The position numbers and the translations under genes are program-made. Positions 1-16,841 of a stretch of DNA of 38,126 bases are shown here, in pieces; within the stretch, counting starts at the first letter, position 1; each line of letters starts with the position of its first letter. The stretch comes from a virus (Duplodnaviria > Caudoviricetes). Location of the stretch: the IMG/VR virus record IMGVR_UViG_3300038520_000467, positions 1-38,126 of that record; one strand, written 5' to 3'. The notes beneath the pieces are model-generated. The model had not been told where the DNA came from. It made no database searches and saw only the letters and a list, made by a program, of their open reading frames with translations.

Positions 1-26
1 CAACAGCAATGGCAATTGCTTTATAA
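1..26 (+). CDS. 3' end of an upstream gene (probable fibre protein), ending ...TAMAIAL*
   Basis: ACA GCA ATG GCA ATT GCT TTA TAA from base 3; hydrophobic C-terminus resembles that of 445..2118 and sits in the same context. Confidence 0.6.
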
Positions 27-40
27 ATAACTAGAAAGTA

Positions 41-50
41 AGTATAATAA
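41..50 (+). promoter_or_regulatory. AGTATAATAA putative phage late promoter (copy 1)
   Basis: Intergenic, followed by AGGAG and ATG at 67; motif recurs nine times between genes. Confidence 0.75.
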
Positions 51-87
51 ATATAGGAGACTAAATATGGCACAAGATTTTGAAAAC
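41..87 (+). repeat. Near-identical direct repeat with 2122..2170 (promoter + RBS + first codons MAQDF)
   Basis: agtataataaatataggagac-taaatatggcacaagatttt versus agtataataaatataggagaccttaaatatggcacaagatttt. Confidence 0.9.
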
Positions 88-393
88 AGCATAGCCAGAA
101 GCACTGGCACTTCAGGGGCAGACATTAGAGTTGCTAATAGTGATGATGCCATTGTAGGATTACGTCTTGCTAATATTCATACAGCAGCAATTACTGTAGA
201 TTGTTTTATTACAAGAAGTAGTGCTAATTATTTTTTAGTTAAAGGTGCTACTATCCCTGCTGGTTCATCTTTAGAATTAATTGATGGGGGTAGTAAAATA
301 GTCTTAGTTAGTGGTGATACATTAAAAGTAGATTGTGATACGGACAACGCATTAGACGTATGGTGCAGTGTAGTAGACACAATTAGTGAATAA
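67..393 (+). CDS. Small beta-rich virion protein, putative fibre adaptor (paralog A)
   Basis: 108 aa, AGGAG RBS; clear paralog of 2150..2479 (KGATIPAGSSLELIDGGSKIVLVSGD vs KGLSLPAGSSVQLLTGGAKMVLKNGD). Confidence 0.7.
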   Translation: MAQDFENSIARSTGTSGADIRVANSDDAIVGLRLANIHTAAITVDCFITRSSANYFLVKGATIPAGSSLELIDGGSKIVLVSGDTLKVDCDTDNALDVWCSVVDTISE

Positions 394-416
394 AATTTAA
401 ACGTATATAGAAAAAA

Positions 417-427
417 TAGTATAATAA
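417..427 (+). promoter_or_regulatory. TAGTATAATAA putative late promoter (copy 2)
   Basis: Intergenic, upstream of AAGGAG and ATG 445. Confidence 0.75.
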
Positions 428-444
428 AATAAGGAGATTAAAGT

Positions 445-2118
445 ATGGGATATATCGGAAATCAACCGGCTGAGACACCAATTAATCAAATTTTAGAAAC
501 AGATTTTAAAATTGGTGAAGATGACGAAACTAAAATAGATTTTGCGGATGTTAATACTATAAACTTTCACGCTAATAACGCGAAAGAAATGGTATTAGTA
601 GAAAATGCTTTGACTCCGGGTGCAAGCGATGGGACTGCATTAGGTACAACTAGCCTTATGTGGTCTGATTTATTTCTTGCAAGTGGTAGTGTCATAAATT
701 TAAATAACGGTGATGTAACACTGACACACTCTGCTAATACTTTAACTGTAGCAGGAGGTACACTTGCAACAGCAGCATTGACTTCAAGCACTATAACTGC
801 GAGTGGTGTTATCCAAACAAATAGCACTACTAATGCTACATCTACAACTGATGGTTCATTACAAACTGATGGTGGATTAAGCGTAGCATTAGATACAGTA
901 TTTGGTGATGATGTATCCCTATTATCAGATGATGCAGTCCTTAATTTTGGAGCAGATAGTGAAATAAAATTAACTCACATTGCAGACACAGGATTAAGAC
1001 TTACAGATTCTGGAGGCACACCTACATTACAATTACATGACCAAAATGAATCAATCGCCTCAGACGGCAGCAAAGTAATTATTACCTCTGGGGGTACTGC
1101 GTTTAGTTTACCTACATCTGACGGAACTAATGGACAAGCATTAGTAACAAATGGTAGTGCTGTATTATCGTTTTCCGATGTAGCATCTAACACACCAACA
1201 AGTGCTGACGGACAAGCATTAGGTTCTGCTTCAGCAGAATGGTCTGATTTATTTTTAGCAGACGGTGGTCAGATATTATTTGGTAATGACCAAGAAATAA
1301 CTTTAACACACGTTGCAGATGATGGATTAATACTTAAACATGTAGGCACTGCAGATGGAAAAGAACCAAGTTTTTCTTTCCATGCGGGTGATAATGACAT
1401 AGCAGCAAATGATGTGTTAGGTTCAATATTTTTCAAAGCTCCAGATGAAGGTTCAGGCACTGATGCTATTTTAGTAGCAGCCGGTATTGAGGCGGTATCT
1501 GAAGGAGACTTTAGTGCTTCTAGTAACGCTACTAAACTATCATTTTTAACAGGTTCATCAGAAGCCGCAGCTGAAAAAATGTCTTTAAGTTCAGGAGGTA
1601 ATCTTACAATTTCTGGGGATTTAACAATTACTGGTGATGATTTATTTATGAACACAAATACAGCAGGACACATTCTTGTTGGTGATGACACAAATTACAA
1701 CCCAGTAGCTGTAAGTGGTGATATTACTTTAGCATCAAATGGTGCAGTTACAATAGCAAATGATGCTGTTGAATCAGGAATGTTAAATGACAATATTATT
1801 TCAGGACAAACAGAAATTACTTCTGGTTTAAATGCAGCAGATGAACTTTTATATTCAGACGGAGGAACTGTTAAAAGAATTGGATTAGACACTTTAGCTA
1901 CTAAATTATTTAGCGTGGCTAGTGCAGATACAGTAGCACAAGCTAGTGACCACATGCTCTTCTTAGATGGTGGTGCGACTGGAGATGTAATTGTAGAAAG
2001 TATTGATGACTTCCTAAGTGCGATTGCAGGTTCAGGTATATCAGTTTCTAGCTCACAATTAACTGCGTCAGGGGGAGTGGATGCAGTAGGAGCTTTAGTT
2101 TTTGCATTAGCAACATAA
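445..2118 (+). CDS. Fibre-like virion protein with internal repeats
   Basis: 557 aa, rich in G/S/T/A/D; N-terminal MGYIGNQP; repeated ALG..S..WSDLFLA.G...LTH units; hydrophobic C-terminus VGALVFALAT. Confidence 0.75.
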   Translation: MGYIGNQPAETPINQILETDFKIGEDDETKIDFADVNTINFHANNAKEMVLVENALTPGASDGTALGTTSLMWSDLFLASGSVINLNNGDVTLTHSANTLTVAGGTLATAALTSSTITASGVIQTNSTTNATSTTDGSLQTDGGLSVALDTVFGDDVSLLSDDAVLNFGADSEIKLTHIADTGLRLTDSGGTPTLQLHDQNESIASDGSKVIITSGGTAFSLPTSDGTNGQALVTNGSAVLSFSDVASNTPTSADGQALGSASAEWSDLFLADGGQILFGNDQEITLTHVADDGLILKHVGTADGKEPSFSFHAGDNDIAANDVLGSIFFKAPDEGSGTDAILVAAGIEAVSEGDFSASSNATKLSFLTGSSEAAAEKMSLSSGGNLTISGDLTITGDDLFMNTNTAGHILVGDDTNYNPVAVSGDITLASNGAVTIANDAVESGMLNDNIISGQTEITSGLNAADELLYSDGGTVKRIGLDTLATKLFSVASADTVAQASDHMLFLDGGATGDVIVESIDDFLSAIAGSGISVSSSQLTASGGVDAVGALVFALAT

Positions 2119-2120
2119 TA

Positions 2121-2131
2121 TAGTATAATAA
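2121..2131 (+). promoter_or_regulatory. TAGTATAATAA putative late promoter (copy 3)
   Basis: Intergenic, upstream of AGGAG and ATG 2150. Confidence 0.75.
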
Positions 2132-2149
2132 ATATAGGAGACCTTAAAT

Positions 2150-2479
2150 ATGGCACAAGATTTTAGAAACCAACTTACACTAGTAACAACGTCTGCTCCA
2201 GCAATTTGGACCGCTGGAGATTATGACGTTATAATTGGTATTATGTTATGTAATTCAGATACAGACGATAATGTTTTAGATGTATATGTTGAAAACAGTT
2301 CTACAAAATATCACGTTGCAAAAGGACTTAGTTTACCAGCAGGTTCATCAGTACAATTACTAACAGGCGGTGCTAAAATGGTCTTGAAAAATGGCGATAT
2401 TTTACACGCAGATATAACCACAGGGGCTAATAACGATACACAAGCAATAGTTAGTGCTATAGATACAGCATCATCGTAA
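2150..2479 (+). CDS. Small beta-rich virion protein, putative fibre adaptor (paralog B)
   Basis: 109 aa, paralog of 67..393 with the same MAQDF start and a similar C-terminus (SAIDTASS vs SVVDTISE). Confidence 0.7.
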   Translation: MAQDFRNQLTLVTTSAPAIWTAGDYDVIIGIMLCNSDTDDNVLDVYVENSSTKYHVAKGLSLPAGSSVQLLTGGAKMVLKNGDILHADITTGANNDTQAIVSAIDTASS

Positions 2480-2488
2480 GGAGGAATT

Positions 2489-3562
2489 ATGCCAGATAAT
2501 TTTTTCGGTAACGCACCTAACCATGCTATGCCTTATGATAGTGTCACTTATAATGGTGGTACTGTCCCAACAACTGCAGGCTATCATTTAGTAAAGCGTG
2601 GTTCGTATGGTGATGTCACATTATCAACAAACAAATGTATTATAGAGTTTGATGGTGGTTGCACACTAGATTCATTAAGAATTACAGCAGACCAATGCAC
2701 TGTTATTTTTGGTCCAAAATTAACAATGACAGGTGATAAGTCAAATGGCATGATAAGTATTACGGGTGACAGAAATTATGTGTATATAGGTCCAAACTCT
2801 GTGATAACAGATAATGGAACACCAAATGCTAGAAACAGCACAGACGGTGGCAATGGTATGGCTTGTGTTATAAGTGGCTCTTACAACACAGTTGAAGGTG
2901 CTAACTGGACTTCAATATTAGTAGGTCCACATAGTGCAGGTGCAGCATATAACTCTAGTGGTACAGCAGAACATAACACATTCAAAAATTTAAGGGGTAG
3001 AAATAGACCTAATAACGGTTCTTATGTGTCAACAGCAGACTGGCATGCTTCTGCACCACATACTACCTTTTATAATTGCTTGTCTGACTATGCTAGTCCG
3101 GGTGGTACTAATACCGAAAATAATGGTGGTTATAAACACGGCACTTTTAAATTAGGACCGATAGCAGGAACAGGTAGTGCAAGCAATAGTAATGGTAATG
3201 GCTATGGTTCTAAAGTTATTTATAGTTATCAGGATTGTTCAGGCAATAGTCCTTATGGCAGTGCAACTTCTTTGCCAACAGGAAGTTCAGCAAATAATAA
3301 TTTTGGCATACAAAACTATGGAGCCCCACATTCGCAATTAATAGGTACATACTTAGATAGTGATGGTCAAACTGCGTCATTAGGTATGTATGAGCCGTAC
3401 ACATTAATTTACGGTTGCGTTTGGGATAGTGCTAGCAACATGTCACAAGAAGCAACTGGTACATGCGTAGCAAGTATATTTAAAGACCCAAGCAATTCTA
3501 ATGGCACACAAACCAATAATGTAGCAGTTGGTGGAAGTATAACAGCGTTGACTAATGATTAA
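2489..3562 (+). CDS. Putative beta-helix (pectin-lyase-like) adhesin / receptor-binding protein 1
   Basis: 357 aa, G/N/S-rich with I.G..N-type turns; AAGGAGG RBS; N-terminal FFGNAP. Confidence 0.55.
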   Translation: MPDNFFGNAPNHAMPYDSVTYNGGTVPTTAGYHLVKRGSYGDVTLSTNKCIIEFDGGCTLDSLRITADQCTVIFGPKLTMTGDKSNGMISITGDRNYVYIGPNSVITDNGTPNARNSTDGGNGMACVISGSYNTVEGANWTSILVGPHSAGAAYNSSGTAEHNTFKNLRGRNRPNNGSYVSTADWHASAPHTTFYNCLSDYASPGGTNTENNGGYKHGTFKLGPIAGTGSASNSNGNGYGSKVIYSYQDCSGNSPYGSATSLPTGSSANNNFGIQNYGAPHSQLIGTYLDSDGQTASLGMYEPYTLIYGCVWDSASNMSQEATGTCVASIFKDPSNSNGTQTNNVAVGGSITALTND

Positions 3563-3570
3563 GGAGATAC

Positions 3571-4605
3571 ATGCCTAAATATGCACAAACAATAAATATA
3601 GAAGGACATAGTGGAATACACAGCGAAGAGTACGAAAGAATTGTATTTACTAGAGGTAGATATACTGCTGTGGAAATTGCAGGCGATTACAATGTAATTA
3701 TTATAAATGCTGGTTGCAGATTTGATGGCAAGTTTGTAGTGTCAGGTGATTACAATAAAATTACAATACACAATGATGTTAACTTTAACAATGGCATACT
3801 TATAGGTGCTGACACAAGTTCAACAGTTGGTGTAGGTAATCACATTAAATGTTTAGGTAAAACTTTTATAACTCGTGACCCTAATGACTATAACGACAAT
3901 ACTCAATACGCTTTGCAGATTAATGGCGACTACACACATTGGGAAGGCAGTGGTATGAATACAAAAGTTGCATTAGAAACTGCGTCAGGTAAAACTACTT
4001 ATGCATGTGTTATTGGTAGACAAGCAAGTGATGGTAATGCAGTAAGCACACCAACAAAATGGTGCATTGTAGAAAAAACAAATTTTATGGTTTTATATAA
4101 CGGCTCATCAAATGGCAGTGGTAAATATTCAATGTATGTAAATGGTAGTACGCATGGTGCGATAGCGTGTGGGCATTTAATTACAAATAACTGGTTTGGT
4201 ACTTTAGGTGGGTACGATAGCTCTATAAGTGCAGGACAAGATACTACAGGGGGTGGTGGTCAAGTTGCTCTTGTTGCTGGTACAACAAGATTCGTAGAAA
4301 ACCACATACAGCCAGTTTATACAGGTGGTATAAATCTTACTGTTGCTGGTAAACGTAACATTGTTTTATTTAATCACGTAGCACATGGTGGCAGTTATGG
4401 TGCTGAAGTATCAGAAGATAATGTTGTTTTTTCAGGTAACTTGGTTTATTGGAATGATGCAAAAGGTACATCTGCAGAACCGATACGTCAGACAAGCAGT
4501 GCTGACAGAATGGTTATGGCAGGTAATAGAGGTGGTAACAAGGCTAGTATTGGAACAAACGCTACGAACAGTCAAGTAGGAAATAACGAGTTAGGGACTT
4601 TATAA
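3571..4605 (+). CDS. Putative beta-helix adhesin / receptor-binding protein 2
   Basis: 344 aa, repeated V/I-x-G-D-Y-N and x-x-G-N motifs typical of parallel beta-helices; N-terminal region aligns with 2489..3562. Confidence 0.6.
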   Translation: MPKYAQTINIEGHSGIHSEEYERIVFTRGRYTAVEIAGDYNVIIINAGCRFDGKFVVSGDYNKITIHNDVNFNNGILIGADTSSTVGVGNHIKCLGKTFITRDPNDYNDNTQYALQINGDYTHWEGSGMNTKVALETASGKTTYACVIGRQASDGNAVSTPTKWCIVEKTNFMVLYNGSSNGSGKYSMYVNGSTHGAIACGHLITNNWFGTLGGYDSSISAGQDTTGGGGQVALVAGTTRFVENHIQPVYTGGINLTVAGKRNIVLFNHVAHGGSYGAEVSEDNVVFSGNLVYWNDAKGTSAEPIRQTSSADRMVMAGNRGGNKASIGTNATNSQVGNNELGTL

Positions 4606-5825
4606 TGGCAGAAACATTTAATTATTTTTCACATCAAAAATTTACACCAAACTACATACATGGTATTGATGGCGAGTTTGAAAATGTAAGTAGTGTTACA
4701 AGCAGTGCCGATTGTACTGCTGTTTTAGAAGCAGGTAACAATATAATGTTTACAGGCAACATGGCACAAGTCGACTGGTCAGCTACTAATGAAGTACCAC
4801 GAAAAGATATGACTTGGAAAACTGGTGTAACAATATCTGACTTACATTATTTTAATGCAGAATACACTACGTTAAATTTACAAGCAGGCACAAGTGCAAT
4901 GCAACCGTTACTTTTTGACGCAGCATATGGCTCAAATGTAAATGCAGTAGGTGCTGCTGATATTACAAACGTAAACTTTACAGGCAGTGGTAGTAGCACT
5001 GTAAGCACAACGCTTGGTGACGAGATAGCAACTAAACCTTATACATTTCAAGGTACTGGTTATGAAACATACATGAAGCATTCAGGTGAGATGGCAATAG
5101 TTGACACCAACCCCGGCGTACAAGACCCAGCAATGGGTGATGTAGATGACGGCTTTGGTACGTTCCACTGTGGTTACGAAGGTTATGACGTTATGAGCAT
5201 GTCATACGCACCTCACAAATTTAGTGCTTCAAGCGATTATCGTGCAATAAGTCATGGTGGTCAGTCGCCTGAATTTGTAGACTTTAGAAATTGCACTGTA
5301 GGAATGGTTAATGGTACACGAACAATGTCAAATTCTAATGGTGTACCGGGTGCAATGTTAACGACACGGAATAGTGAGTATTATTATCTATCATTTATTC
5401 TGGCAGACTTTAGTAGTCATAGGCAGGTCTTTAGAGGTAATGCTGATAAAATGCATATAAGGAATTGTGTTGTTGCAGGATTTACAGACTCAACAAGTAA
5501 TCACAATGAGCCAGACAACAGTTACCTTTACAAAAAAAGCATACTAAGTGGTTTTCAATTTTTAGAAATGGAAAGCAGTGCAGGTAGTAGTAACAGCAAT
5601 CATGATGGTGGTGGTATAGCCAGTGCAGATGATGACGCACTAATTGTTGCTTCTACAATAGAAATGCAAAGTGCAGATGCAGCAGGTGATGCTGTGAGGT
5701 TACTAAGTGGTGCAAATGACAACGTAGTTTATGGTTTAAATATACACAGCAACGATACAAGTTACGGTGATGTCCTTGATGATGCAAGTGATGGAACAGT
5801 AGCAGGAAATAGTAGCAATACATAA
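4605..5825 (+). CDS. Putative beta-helix adhesin / receptor-binding protein 3
   Basis: 406 aa, FRNC and IRNC rung-like motifs, C-terminal GTVAGNSSNT; TAATG coupling to the previous gene. Confidence 0.5.
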   Translation: MAETFNYFSHQKFTPNYIHGIDGEFENVSSVTSSADCTAVLEAGNNIMFTGNMAQVDWSATNEVPRKDMTWKTGVTISDLHYFNAEYTTLNLQAGTSAMQPLLFDAAYGSNVNAVGAADITNVNFTGSGSSTVSTTLGDEIATKPYTFQGTGYETYMKHSGEMAIVDTNPGVQDPAMGDVDDGFGTFHCGYEGYDVMSMSYAPHKFSASSDYRAISHGGQSPEFVDFRNCTVGMVNGTRTMSNSNGVPGAMLTTRNSEYYYLSFILADFSSHRQVFRGNADKMHIRNCVVAGFTDSTSNHNEPDNSYLYKKSILSGFQFLEMESSAGSSNSNHDGGGIASADDDALIVASTIEMQSADAAGDAVRLLSGANDNVVYGLNIHSNDTSYGDVLDDASDGTVAGNSSNT

Positions 5826-15942: not shown

Positions 15943-16345
15943 GGTTGTTAGACTAAGGAAACAAAACCCTTTTATGTCTACATCTGAAATTGCAAGACGA
16001 GCAGGGGCAGATATATCGTATGCAAGAAGAGTTTTACTCAAGAATAATCTAGAAACCAACCCGCCTAAACCTAAACCTGTGGTATACTGTAAAGTATGTA
16101 GGTTGGCAACCACGGACCGTTACGGACTACATGATGGTGAATGTAGATTTAAGTGGAATAGAATAAGACTGACTTGTTCTTTTTGCAGAGTTCCTTTTTA
16201 TAGGAGCAGAAAAAGAGTAATGCAGGGATATAGATTAAAACTAAAGAATGTTTATTGCACAAGAGATTGCTATCAAACATATAGGAAACAAAGAAAACAT
16301 GAAAATAGACAACGACCTAATATTACAGTGGGAGCCGAAGATTAA
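15926..16345 (+). CDS. HTH plus Cys-rich (Zn-binding) putative regulator
   Basis: MSTSEIARRAGADISYARRVL helix-turn-helix; CKVC, CSFC and CTRDC motifs. Confidence 0.65.
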   Translation: MKVKNKVVRLRKQNPFMSTSEIARRAGADISYARRVLLKNNLETNPPKPKPVVYCKVCRLATTDRYGLHDGECRFKWNRIRLTCSFCRVPFYRSRKRVMQGYRLKLKNVYCTRDCYQTYRKQRKHENRQRPNITVGAED

Positions 16346-16841
16346 TAAAATGTTGTCAAACATTTATATACAAGGTTATGATAGAGATGACCTTGCACAA
16401 GAATTACGAATGATAGTTTTAAAAGCGGCTAAATTATATAAACCAAATAGAAATGCTATATTCCATACTTATTTACACACGGCTATGGTCAATAGATTAA
16501 AAACATTATGGATGCAAGCAAGTAAAAAAATACAAGGATATAGTTTAGATTTAGAAACATCTGAGGATGGTAACTCTTATAAACTAAGTGACTTTGTAAA
16601 ACAATTAGATGACAATTTAGATGAGGTTGAGTTTGTAGACTATTTAGATTCACTTAATCTAGATAAAGGTGAAAAAGAGTTTTTACTAAAGAAGTTTCAA
16701 AATCACACTATGAAAGACATAGAGGAAAAATTAAAAAGCATTTCTGACACAAAGATTGTCAATGGGCAAGAAGTTGTGGTAAACTATTCGATATACAAAG
16801 TGAAAAAGTCGCTTAGAAATAAATTAAACGAAGAGAAATAG
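16299..16841 (+). CDS. Phage sigma70-family RNA polymerase sigma factor
   Basis: Region 2 signature DRDDLAQELRMIVLKAAKLY...FHTYLHTAMVNRL; region 4-like helix near the C-terminus; start moved to ATG 16299 (MKIDND). Confidence 0.75.
   Translation: MKIDNDLILQWEPKINKMLSNIYIQGYDRDDLAQELRMIVLKAAKLYKPNRNAIFHTYLHTAMVNRLKTLWMQASKKIQGYSLDLETSEDGNSYKLSDFVKQLDDNLDEVEFVDYLDSLNLDKGEKEFLLKKFQNHTMKDIEEKLKSISDTKIVNGQEVVVNYSIYKVKKSLRNKLNEEK

What the first reader, a model, noticed from the sequence alone, without database searches (positions are those of the whole stretch)
1..2530. Candidate daisy-chain fibre system: hydrophobic C-tail, ~108-aa adaptor, G-N-x-P N-terminus, repeated twice
Seen: the same three-part junction occurs twice. 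A gene ending in a short hydrophobic tail (...TAMAIAL* at 26; ...VGALVFALAT* at 2118) is followed by a promoter motif and a 108/109-aa MAQDF paralog, and then by a gene starting with aromatic-x-G-N-x-P (MGYIGNQP at 445; MPDNFFGNAP at 2489). The 557-aa protein carries both an N-terminal and a C-terminal motif, as a middle link would. Inference: the small proteins are couplers that join the C-tail of one fibre segment to the N-terminus of the next, so a long appendage is built from interchangeable segments and capped by adhesins. I do not know of a description of this mechanism, but I could not search for one.
Basis: partly seen in the sequence, partly recalled or inferred. Interest (0 to 1): 0.85.

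Follow-up and report, generated by a model that had tools for sequence, protein, structure and literature searches.

The report
Universal coupler for segmented phage fibres
Many abundant aquatic phages place the gene for a small 108-residue protein between a fibre gene that ends in a conserved hydrophobic tail and a fibre gene that starts with a conserved short tag, and this protein likely clips the two segments together, so that host-binding fibres would be built from swappable parts.

Summary
The 108/109-aa proteins (40% identical) belong to a large unnamed phage family (1,718 clusters at 50% identity) with a predicted small jelly-roll fold. In related loci 186 of 193 members follow a gene ending in a hydrophobic C-tail (background 64 of 1,503) and 161 of 188 precede a gene starting with a Y-I-G-type tag (background 113 of 1,525). 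The reverse tests also hold: 100 of 112 AxAIALG* ends are followed by the protein, and 38 of 38 MAYIGNxP genes with 5 kb of upstream DNA have it upstream. The tags sit on otherwise unrelated fibre bodies. Tail types pair with coupler types, and 'middle links' carrying both tags recur in 8 loci, including phage Melnitz. Best reading (0.7): a two-faced coupler that joins fibre segments. Binding is inferred, not shown; the complex predictor was unavailable. Two corrections: the promoter motif is not part of the junction, and many loci have two or more tagged tips per coupler, so the structure may branch or carry alternative tips. Closest precedents: the T4 gp35 knee, the KP32 docking peptide and the HFTV1 turret base.

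The parts
3..26 (+). End of the proximal fibre segment (761 aa in the near-identical contig L001) with C-terminal plug type 1, ...GFATAMAIAL*
   Evidence: F, A, A, L invariant in 42 tails chosen for this type
41..50 (+). AGTATAATAA promoter-like motif (phage-wide, not specific to the junction)
   Evidence: 8 copies against 0.51 expected
67..393 (+). Coupler 1, 108 aa, predicted small jelly-roll beta-sandwich, MAQDF subtype
   Evidence: (pLDDT 92)
418..427 (+). AGTATAATAA promoter-like motif before the 557-aa gene
445..2118 (+). Middle link, 557 aa: N-terminal plug MGYIG (445-459), repeated beta-hairpin fibre modules, C-terminal plug type 2 VGALVFALAT* (2086-2118)
   Evidence: pLDDT 60, both ends low-confidence in the monomer; best matches Bdellovibrio Bd2439/Bd1334 fibres E 3e-4 to 7e-4; T5 L-shaped fibre E 1e-2
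2122..2131 (+). AGTATAATAA promoter-like motif
2150..2479 (+). Coupler 2, 109 aa, paralog of coupler 1 (40% identical)
2489..3562 (+). Candidate distal tip, 357 aa, N-terminal plug variant NFFGNAP; beta-helix-like by a weak lead only
   Evidence: Atlas 0.86, Beta_helix/pectate-lyase-like clusters, a lead only; N4 and F5 invariant, F6, G7, N8 at 90% or more in 10 sequences
3571..4605 (+). Second candidate tip or adhesin, 344 aa, without a clear plug; membership in the system is inferred from position only
   Evidence: same order in L003; no family hit; no BLAST likeness to its neighbours
4605..5825 (+). Third candidate tip or adhesin, 406 aa, without a clear plug; membership inferred from position only

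Best explanation
The small protein is likely a two-faced structural coupler: an oligomer of small jelly-roll domains that would bury the hydrophobic C-terminal plug of one trimeric fibre segment on one face and grip the M-x-Y-I-G N-terminal plug of the next segment on the other. In this phage the inferred chain is 761-aa proximal segment, coupler 1, 557-aa middle link, coupler 2, 357-aa tip (possibly with the 344- and 406-aa proteins). The tail plug comes in types that pair with coupler types, which would fix the order of assembly. The N plug is nearly universal, so tips would be interchangeable and several may compete for, or share, one coupler. Shown: gene order, two-way co-occurrence, tags on unrelated bodies, protein-level conservation, type pairing, recurrent middle links, fibre-family matches in the flanking genes. 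Predicted: the jelly-roll fold. Inferred: binding, stoichiometry (trimer or hexamer), trimeric state of the segments, and place on the virion.
For: Forward test (176 loci, 194 hits): hydrophobic tail upstream in 186 of 193 and N tag downstream in 161 of 188; after clustering couplers at 70%, 36 of 42 and 28 of 40; other genes of the same loci 64 of 1,503 and 113 of 1,525. Reverse test from the tail: 100 of 112 evaluable A-x-A-I-A-L-G* ends are followed by a coupler within about 480 nt. Reverse test from the tag: 67 of 101 MAYIGNxP genes lie directly behind a coupler, and 38 of 38 with 5 kb or more of upstream DNA have one upstream. The tags sit on different bodies: 146 upstream proteins fall into 19 clusters and 105 downstream into 12; the 120 tails show 107 different DNA spellings. 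Ends are swapped between bodies (P0270: YIG start with AMAIAL end; P0330: 761-type start with 557-type end). Polarity fits: upstream genes hit tail-fibre PHROGs, collagen and Mtd_N; downstream genes carry C1q, S74 chaperone or Gly-rich domains. Type pairing: MANTF with xALG* 72, MAQDF with AMAIAL* 60, no cross pair; MAxPNIV with xxFG(G)* 4; YKxLG with LLSGM* 4. Eight middle links. Natural fusions of the coupler domain to a LamG-like lectin domain: P0255 above the Pfam cut-off, P0267 just under it. Fold analog: the HFTV1 turret base (Z 9.9, rmsd 2.4, 93 aligned), a separate small hexamer that holds the N termini of a trimeric glycan-binding head (PMC12494034 section 9). Homologs are annotated 'virion structural protein' in several isolates.
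Against: No interface was computed or observed. The N tag is short and less strict: 12 of 40 coupler clusters lack it in the next gene, and an unrelated MAYIGNFP-starting family shows no coupler in the DNA held (L334, with 4,977 nt upstream, and L343, L389, L393, L395). Twelve of 112 tails are not directly followed by a coupler, and five T4-like fragments hold none in the record (the fragments are 2-30% complete). Type pairing is confounded by kinship, because the loci came from clade-specific searches that kept the best 80 of 561 and of 550. The top fold match is a capsid cement trimer (KHP40, Z 10.1, tied with HFTV1), and jelly rolls are common, so the fold shows no function. The 557-aa model is of low confidence (pLDDT 60).
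Confidence: 0.7

Rival explanations
1. Branching hub rather than a linear link: the coupler caps one proximal trimer but offers several sockets (for example as a hexamer like the HFTV1 turret base), so different tagged fibres are carried side by side and the appendage is a tree. This overlaps with the best reading and differs in stoichiometry.
For: 29 of 55 couplers have two or more M-x-Y-I-G genes within 8 kb downstream. L291 and similar T4-like loci hold several coupler types in series. The HFTV1 turret base is a hexamer. Branched receptor-binding systems with docking peptides exist (PMC13352976).
Against: 18 of 55 couplers have exactly one tagged gene and 8 have none by the strict pattern. 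Alternative tips competing for one socket on different fibres explain the same gene counts.
Confidence: 0.14
2. One-sided partner: the small protein binds only the C-tail, as a cap or a trimerising or solubilising chaperone in trans (a C1q/TNF-like 'foldon'), and the Y-I-G peptides dock on something else, such as the tail bundle or another virion protein.
For: The link to the tail is tighter and type-specific, while the tag is shared across coupler types. C1q/TNF heads and needle knobs are among the weak fold matches. 34 of 101 tag genes are not adjacent to a coupler.
Against: The gene directly behind the coupler carries the tag about 12 times more often than background. Tag genes with enough upstream DNA had a coupler upstream in 38 of 38 cases. 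In the fusions the coupler domain itself carries the distal lectin domain. A pure cap would leave segments without a receptor-binding end, which is hard to explain for middle links.
Confidence: 0.11
3. No protein contact: the tail is a membrane anchor or a DNA-level recombination boundary, and the genes are neighbours only because they travel as one cassette.
For: The tail is wholly hydrophobic, and the genes lie in a variable fibre island.
Against: The hydrophobic stretch is only about 9-10 residues and has exact invariant positions and an exact end. Synonymous sites vary freely, so selection is on the protein. The bodies on both sides are unrelated between phages while only the junction-facing ends are kept.
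Confidence: 0.03

Closest known systems
T4 long tail fibre gp34-gp35-gp36-gp37 (PMC5537660, abstract and passages)
   Same: A fibre built end to end from several trimeric gene products, with a separately encoded protein (gp35) at the joint next to the C terminus of the proximal segment.
   Different: Here the joint protein is a 108-aa jelly roll with no hit to any named family, recognises short portable plugs, is used repeatedly in one genome, and occurs in podo-, sipho- and myoviruses.
Branched receptor-binding systems: KP32 gp37 branching domain and gp38 conserved N-terminal peptide (PMC13352976, abstract and section 21)
   Same: A short conserved N-terminal peptide docks a distal host-binding protein onto a proximal one and is portable between proteins (shown by experiment there).
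   Different: There the socket is a domain inside the first receptor-binding protein. Here it is a separate gene, and the proximal protein ends in a second, C-terminal plug instead of a receptor-binding domain.
HFTV1 turret base protein gp30 with turret head gp31 (PDB 8QPG; PMC12494034, passages and section 9)
   Same: Same size and fold class (Z 9.9, rmsd 2.4 over 93 residues, 12% identity); a stand-alone base that holds the N termini of a trimeric glycan-binding protein encoded by the next gene.
   Different: It anchors in the capsid hexamer by its own stalk. The upstream gene has no hydrophobic tail, gp31 does not start with Y-I-G, and there is no convincing sequence likeness (6.5 bits; HHalign probability 2.4%).
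PHROG 1276 and 26609 (unknown function); GenBank 'putative (virion) structural protein' of HMO-2011, HTVC010P, S-TIM5, CRP-9 and others
   Same: The same protein family, with the same tail-coupler-tag order in HMO-2011, S-TIM5 (tag variant HIG), Melnitz (twice), YerA41 and OspM_OC, and tail-coupler in HTVC010P.
   Different: The records assign no function and do not note the flanking plugs.
A1002 chain-like fibres (PMC13730344, abstract only)
   Same: A chain-like fibre built from more than one protein.
   Different: Fibre dimers are strung along one long rope protein; the abstract describes no end-to-end coupler.

Membership tests
T4-type long tail fibre with gp35 knee | Fibre made of several gene products joined end to end | tested here: inconclusive
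   Gene anatomy and fibre-family hits fit; physical joining not tested
T4-type long tail fibre with gp35 knee | Joint protein homologous to gp35 | tested here: inconclusive
   No credible PDB-sequence or Pfam hit for the alignment; gp35 not among the listed fold matches, which does not exclude it
KP32/CBA120-type branched receptor-binding system | Socket is a T4 gp10-like branching domain inside the primary receptor-binding protein | tested here: not met
   The candidate socket is a separate 108-aa gene; the proximal proteins end in a hydrophobic tail
KP32/CBA120-type branched receptor-binding system | Conserved short N-terminal docking peptide on the distal protein | tested here: met
   M-x-Y-(I/L/V)-G on 12 unrelated body clusters; docking itself is inferred
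HFTV1 turret base (gp30) | Small jelly-roll fold | tested here: met
   model; Z 9.9, rmsd 2.4, 93 aligned
HFTV1 turret base (gp30) | Sequence homology and the same gene context | tested here: not met
   6.5 bits, HHalign probability 2.4%; gp29 end and gp31 start lack the plugs
HFTV1 turret base (gp30) | Hexamer inserted in the capsid hexamer | not testable with these tools
   The complex predictor was not available; there is no virion structure
C1q/TNF-like trimeric heads | Pfam C1q match | tested here: not met
   None of 74 family members hits PF00386 at E 0.05; only generic fold likeness, Z 7.5
Capsid cement/decoration trimers (KHP40 type) | Jelly-roll fold like 7DOU cement | tested here: met
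   Z 10.1, rmsd 2.8, 103 aligned, 10% identity
Capsid cement/decoration trimers (KHP40 type) | Gene tied to the major capsid gene rather than to fibre genes | tested here: not met
   The gene lies between fibre genes. In the complete relative G010 the scaffold and the likely capsid gene lie near 75-77 kb, the coupler at 26.4 kb (the capsid call is by position and size)

The most novel reading that the evidence does not exclude
A universal plug-and-socket standard for phage appendages, shared by SAR11, SAR116, Roseobacter, cyanobacterial, OM43 and rhizobial phages of all three tail types. A free jelly-roll coupler joins any fibre that ends in a typed hydrophobic plug to any fibre that starts with Y-I-G. 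At least four to five orthogonal plug-coupler pairs act as an address code that orders multi-segment or branched fibres, and host range changes by exchange of whole tip genes across unrelated phages.
Probability: 0.45. Interest if true: 0.9.

Novelty: new variant of a known kind. Interest (0 to 1): 0.78.

Why it matters
It gives a concrete, testable role to an unnamed protein family of some of the most abundant ocean phages (HTVC010P-, HMO-2011- and T4-like types) and explains why their variable fibre islands consist of many short genes with stereotyped ends. It predicts which genes are the host-binding tips (those with the Y-I-G start and no tail) and how they are swapped between unrelated phages. 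The tail pattern alone occurs in about 4,100 stored stretches of the viral collection. A two-peptide, genetically encoded coupler with orthogonal types would also be a useful part for building protein filaments and for ordinary phage host-range work.

Tried and rejected
Complex prediction (coupler x3 with tail x3) was not available, so nothing was folded and there is no result either way. Pfam gave nothing for either coupler or for the 557-, 357-, 344- and 406-aa proteins; PHROGs gave only two unknown-function families for coupler 1. PDB sequence searches gave only a repeat-driven hit to a designed WD40 protein and nothing credible for the 557- and 357-aa alignments. Foldseek on PDB had no match at E 0.001 for the coupler. 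Apparent fusions of upstream fibre and coupler (P0121) and C-extended couplers (P0001, P0009) look like stop codons read as Q by a gene caller and were not used as evidence. The promoter motif was rejected as part of the junction. My recollection of 'cage proteins' on crAss001 fibres was not supported: 0 occurrences in the main text of PMC10172136. A motif search of the literature returned 553 papers; the 20 listed were unrelated name or sequence matches and the rest were not seen. Searches and passages of the Melnitz (PMC9004378: 0 hits for adaptor or connector), YerA41 (PMC9023294), marine-proteomics (PMC12014285), S-SCSM1 (PMC9602691), P-SSP7 (PMC5520035) and Klebsiella RBP atlas (bioRxiv 10.64898/2026.05.12.724579) papers showed no description of this junction. 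Subscription papers and all supplements were not seen, so absence from print is not proven. The S-TIM5 paper was not obtained; that its 'virion structural' label rests on proteomics is recalled, not checked. One scan of prokaryote genomes with a MANTF-type alignment gave only 6 loci, all on MAG contigs; five were inspected and show phage-like gene runs with the same tail-coupler order.
Full report
Context. The window is a 38,126-bp viral record, about 49% complete, of a tailed phage with PolA, primase, helicase, RecA-like protein, ribonucleotide reductase, terminase and portal. It has a separate tail module at 8.6-15.9 kb: tube (PF18906) and a 1,121-aa spike with an S74 chaperone. The genes at 1-5825 have no family names, except weak hits of the 108-aa protein to PHROG 1276 and 26609, both of unknown function.

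Observation. All four ORFs and both junctions are as described. The near-identical contig L001 (12 mismatches in 10,000 nt) adds the missing first gene, 761 aa ending KGFATAMAIAL*. The paralogs are 40% identical. The AGTATAATAA motif is real (8 copies against 0.51 expected) but also precedes the 557-aa gene and five other places, so it is not part of the junction.

The small protein. It has 831 homologs of near length at E 0.001 in the 90% database and 1,718 clusters at 50% identity. AlphaFold2 gives a confident small beta-sandwich (pLDDT 92). It has 103 matches at E 0.001 among predicted viral structures, those listed being unnamed or 'virion structural', and none at that level in PDB by Foldseek. 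The wide aligner ranks the KHP40 cement trimer (Z 10.1) and the HFTV1 turret base (Z 9.9) first, ahead of other jelly rolls at Z 8.6 and below. Homologs occur in 36 and 45 phage records for two queries: pelagiphages, HMO-2011, roseophages, S-TIM5, Melnitz, rhizobial T4-like phages, YerA41, OspM_OC and phiW-14.

Forward test. I pooled 176 loci: 170 IMG/VR loci (including the best 80 of 561 and the best 80 of 550 candidates of two alignment scans) and 6 annotated isolates. They gave 194 hits to the 74-member profile. Of 193 hits with an upstream neighbour, 186 follow a hydrophobic, uncharged C terminus (172 by a strict pattern). Of 188 with a downstream neighbour, 161 precede an aromatic/aliphatic-hydrophobic-Gly tag within the first 15 residues. 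Other genes of the same loci score 64 of 1,503 (strict 2 of 1,503) and 113 of 1,525. With couplers clustered at 70% the counts are 36 of 42 and 28 of 40; the misses include two doubtful distant hits and divergent types.

Reverse tests. A DNA pattern for A-x-A-I-A-L-G-stop, which uses no coupler information, matches about 4,100 stored stretches; 120 loci were returned. Of 112 with at least 140 nt behind the stop, 100 have a coupler within about 480 nt. Of the 12 misses, two look like chance matches (L117, L214), one has the coupler one gene further (L182), two have it elsewhere in the record (L210, L218), and seven are small fragments with no hit in the record. Three of those seven are T4-like, with the tail gene directly before the neck gene (PHROG 211 for L108 and L147). 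A pattern for MAYIGNxP returned 123 loci. Of 101 distinct evaluable genes, 67 lie directly behind a coupler, and all 38 with at least 5 kb upstream have a coupler upstream. L334, with 4,977 nt, has none and belongs to a different MAYIGNFP family.

The plugs are portable and selected as protein. The 100 residues before the tail fall into 19 clusters among 146 proteins, and residues 16-115 behind the tag into 12 clusters among 105. The 120 tails have 107 DNA spellings with free third positions. Among the 120 best homologs of the 557-aa protein, P0270 joins its start to an AMAIAL end and P0330 joins the 761-type start to its type of end. Upstream genes hit tail-fibre PHROGs, collagen and Mtd_N; downstream genes carry C1q (4 of 33 scanned), S74 (3), Gly-rich (2) or weak T7-fibre N-domain hits (3). 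The 557-aa model (pLDDT 60, ends low-confidence) matches Bdellovibrio Bd2439/Bd1334 fibres (E 3e-4 to 7e-4) and the T5 L-shaped fibre (E 1e-2) over about 105-145 columns. The 357-aa protein has only a lead towards a beta-helix.

Types and chains. Among distinct couplers, MANTF pairs with xALG* 72 times and MAQDF with AMAIAL* 60 times, with no cross pair. MAxPNIV pairs with xxFG(G)* 4 times, YKxLG with LLSGM* 4 times and MAQDF with VFxLAx* twice; 5 pairs fall outside these classes. Kinship can produce such a split, so it is suggestive only. Eight middle links with both plugs were found: L001, L003, Melnitz, L245, L247, L269, L272, L291. The second junction uses another tail type than the first in L001, L003, L247, L269, L272 and L291; it uses the same type in Melnitz, and the first tail is not seen in L245. 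Positions that separate MAQ(D/N)F from the other couplers (3-4, 26-27, 33, 73, 76, 103-107) differ from the shared ones (for example G14, T15, N36, P64, G66, D97). By the strand order, most of the first set would lie at one pole of the sandwich and the shared ones named at the other. This is my inference from topology without coordinates, and residues 3-4 define the classes. It predicts a typed face for the tail and a common face for the tag. Against a simple line, 29 of 55 couplers have two or more tagged genes within 8 kb, 18 have one and 8 have none. Natural fusions P0255 and P0267 carry a LamG-like lectin domain behind the coupler domain.

Mechanism. The most economical reading is a two-faced coupler: proximal segment, typed hydrophobic plug, coupler oligomer, Y-I-G plug, next segment, repeated until a receptor-binding tip (0.7). 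A branching hub (0.14) and a tail-only cap or chaperone (0.11) are the live rivals; a membrane-anchor or DNA-level explanation (0.03) fits poorly. No interface was computed, because the complex predictor was not available. Where the chain sits on this virion is unknown. In relatives the upstream genes have tail-fibre hits, while in T4-like fragments the tail gene occupies the slot before gp13, where T4 has fibritin (recalled).

Comparison. T4's long fibre has a joint protein, the gp35 monomer, next to the gp34 C terminus (PMC5537660, passages). KP32's second receptor-binding protein docks by a conserved N-terminal peptide on a branching domain of the first (PMC13352976, section 21). HFTV1's turret base is a hexameric small protein that contacts the N termini of a trimeric head (PMC12494034, section 9), but it has neither the plugs nor convincing sequence likeness. 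This system works like a blend of the three and is a member of none. Ten literature searches found no description of it; subscription papers and supplements were not seen. An earlier scan note (e1-5632193) describes a neighbouring docking grammar (GPIT...W ends), which I saw independently in these loci (22 of 40 against 93 of 1,575).

Verdict. A real, very widespread and apparently undescribed fibre-junction module. New variant of a known kind, interest 0.78; binding remains to be shown.

Noticed in passing
L013, L014, L015, L017, L019, L020, L023, L027, L037 and HMO-2011 (L087:8338-14690): A second docking grammar behind the Y-I-G genes: proteins ending GPIT...V.V..G..(W/L).I(I/L/V)* are followed by small proteins starting MS.(L/I).(V/A/T)(D/N).I in 22 of 40 cases against 93 of 1,575; many of these small proteins end in GDLA*.
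   Followed up: partly
L147:3344-4768; L108:3440-4988; L162: In T4-like fragments a 190-230-aa gene ending AMAIALG* sits directly before the neck gene gp13 (PHROG 211), the slot of T4 fibritin (recalled); no coupler in these fragments. The system may also build neck whiskers.
   Followed up: partly
L291:10001-19799 (also L272, L294, L299): A T4-like locus with about seven coupler-like genes of several types, some in tandem pairs (MANSYKILG + MAQSYEILG; MAAAYKILG + MPTNTYKILG), each group behind a short hydrophobic tail: possible hetero-oligomeric couplers.
   Followed up: no
window 41, 418, 2122, 8564, 26184, 31569, 36535, 37216: AGTATAATAA occurs 8 times on the + strand against 0.51 expected, mostly just before genes; the phage encodes a sigma-70 region-2 protein at 16248-16841. 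Likely a late promoter.
   Followed up: partly
window 2489-5825: Three similar-sized Gly/Asn/Ser-rich proteins (357, 344, 406 aa) follow coupler 2 here and in L003, without mutual BLAST likeness; only the first has the plug. They could form a heterotrimeric tip or separate adhesins.
   Followed up: partly
L334, L343, L389, L393, L395: A family of about 203-aa proteins starting MAYIGNFP (or WP) follows a large gene with a shared end and shows no coupler in the DNA held; a false positive of the tag, or a tag used by another socket.
   Followed up: no
L010, L012, L016, L021, L038, L042 and others: Behind MAQDFRN-type couplers lies a tiny 57-60-aa gene with the Y-I-G set 8-12 residues in (e.g. GIQYIG, GPLYIG): a minimal second adaptor.
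   Followed up: no
L106:4030 (214 aa): A coupler with an insertion of about 85 residues, still between an AIALG tail and a MAYLG gene.
   Followed up: no
L307:13527-14894 (G010): The likely major capsid protein of the complete relative (455 aa, by position behind the scaffold) is followed by a 107-aa and a 342-aa protein that may be head decorations.
   Followed up: no
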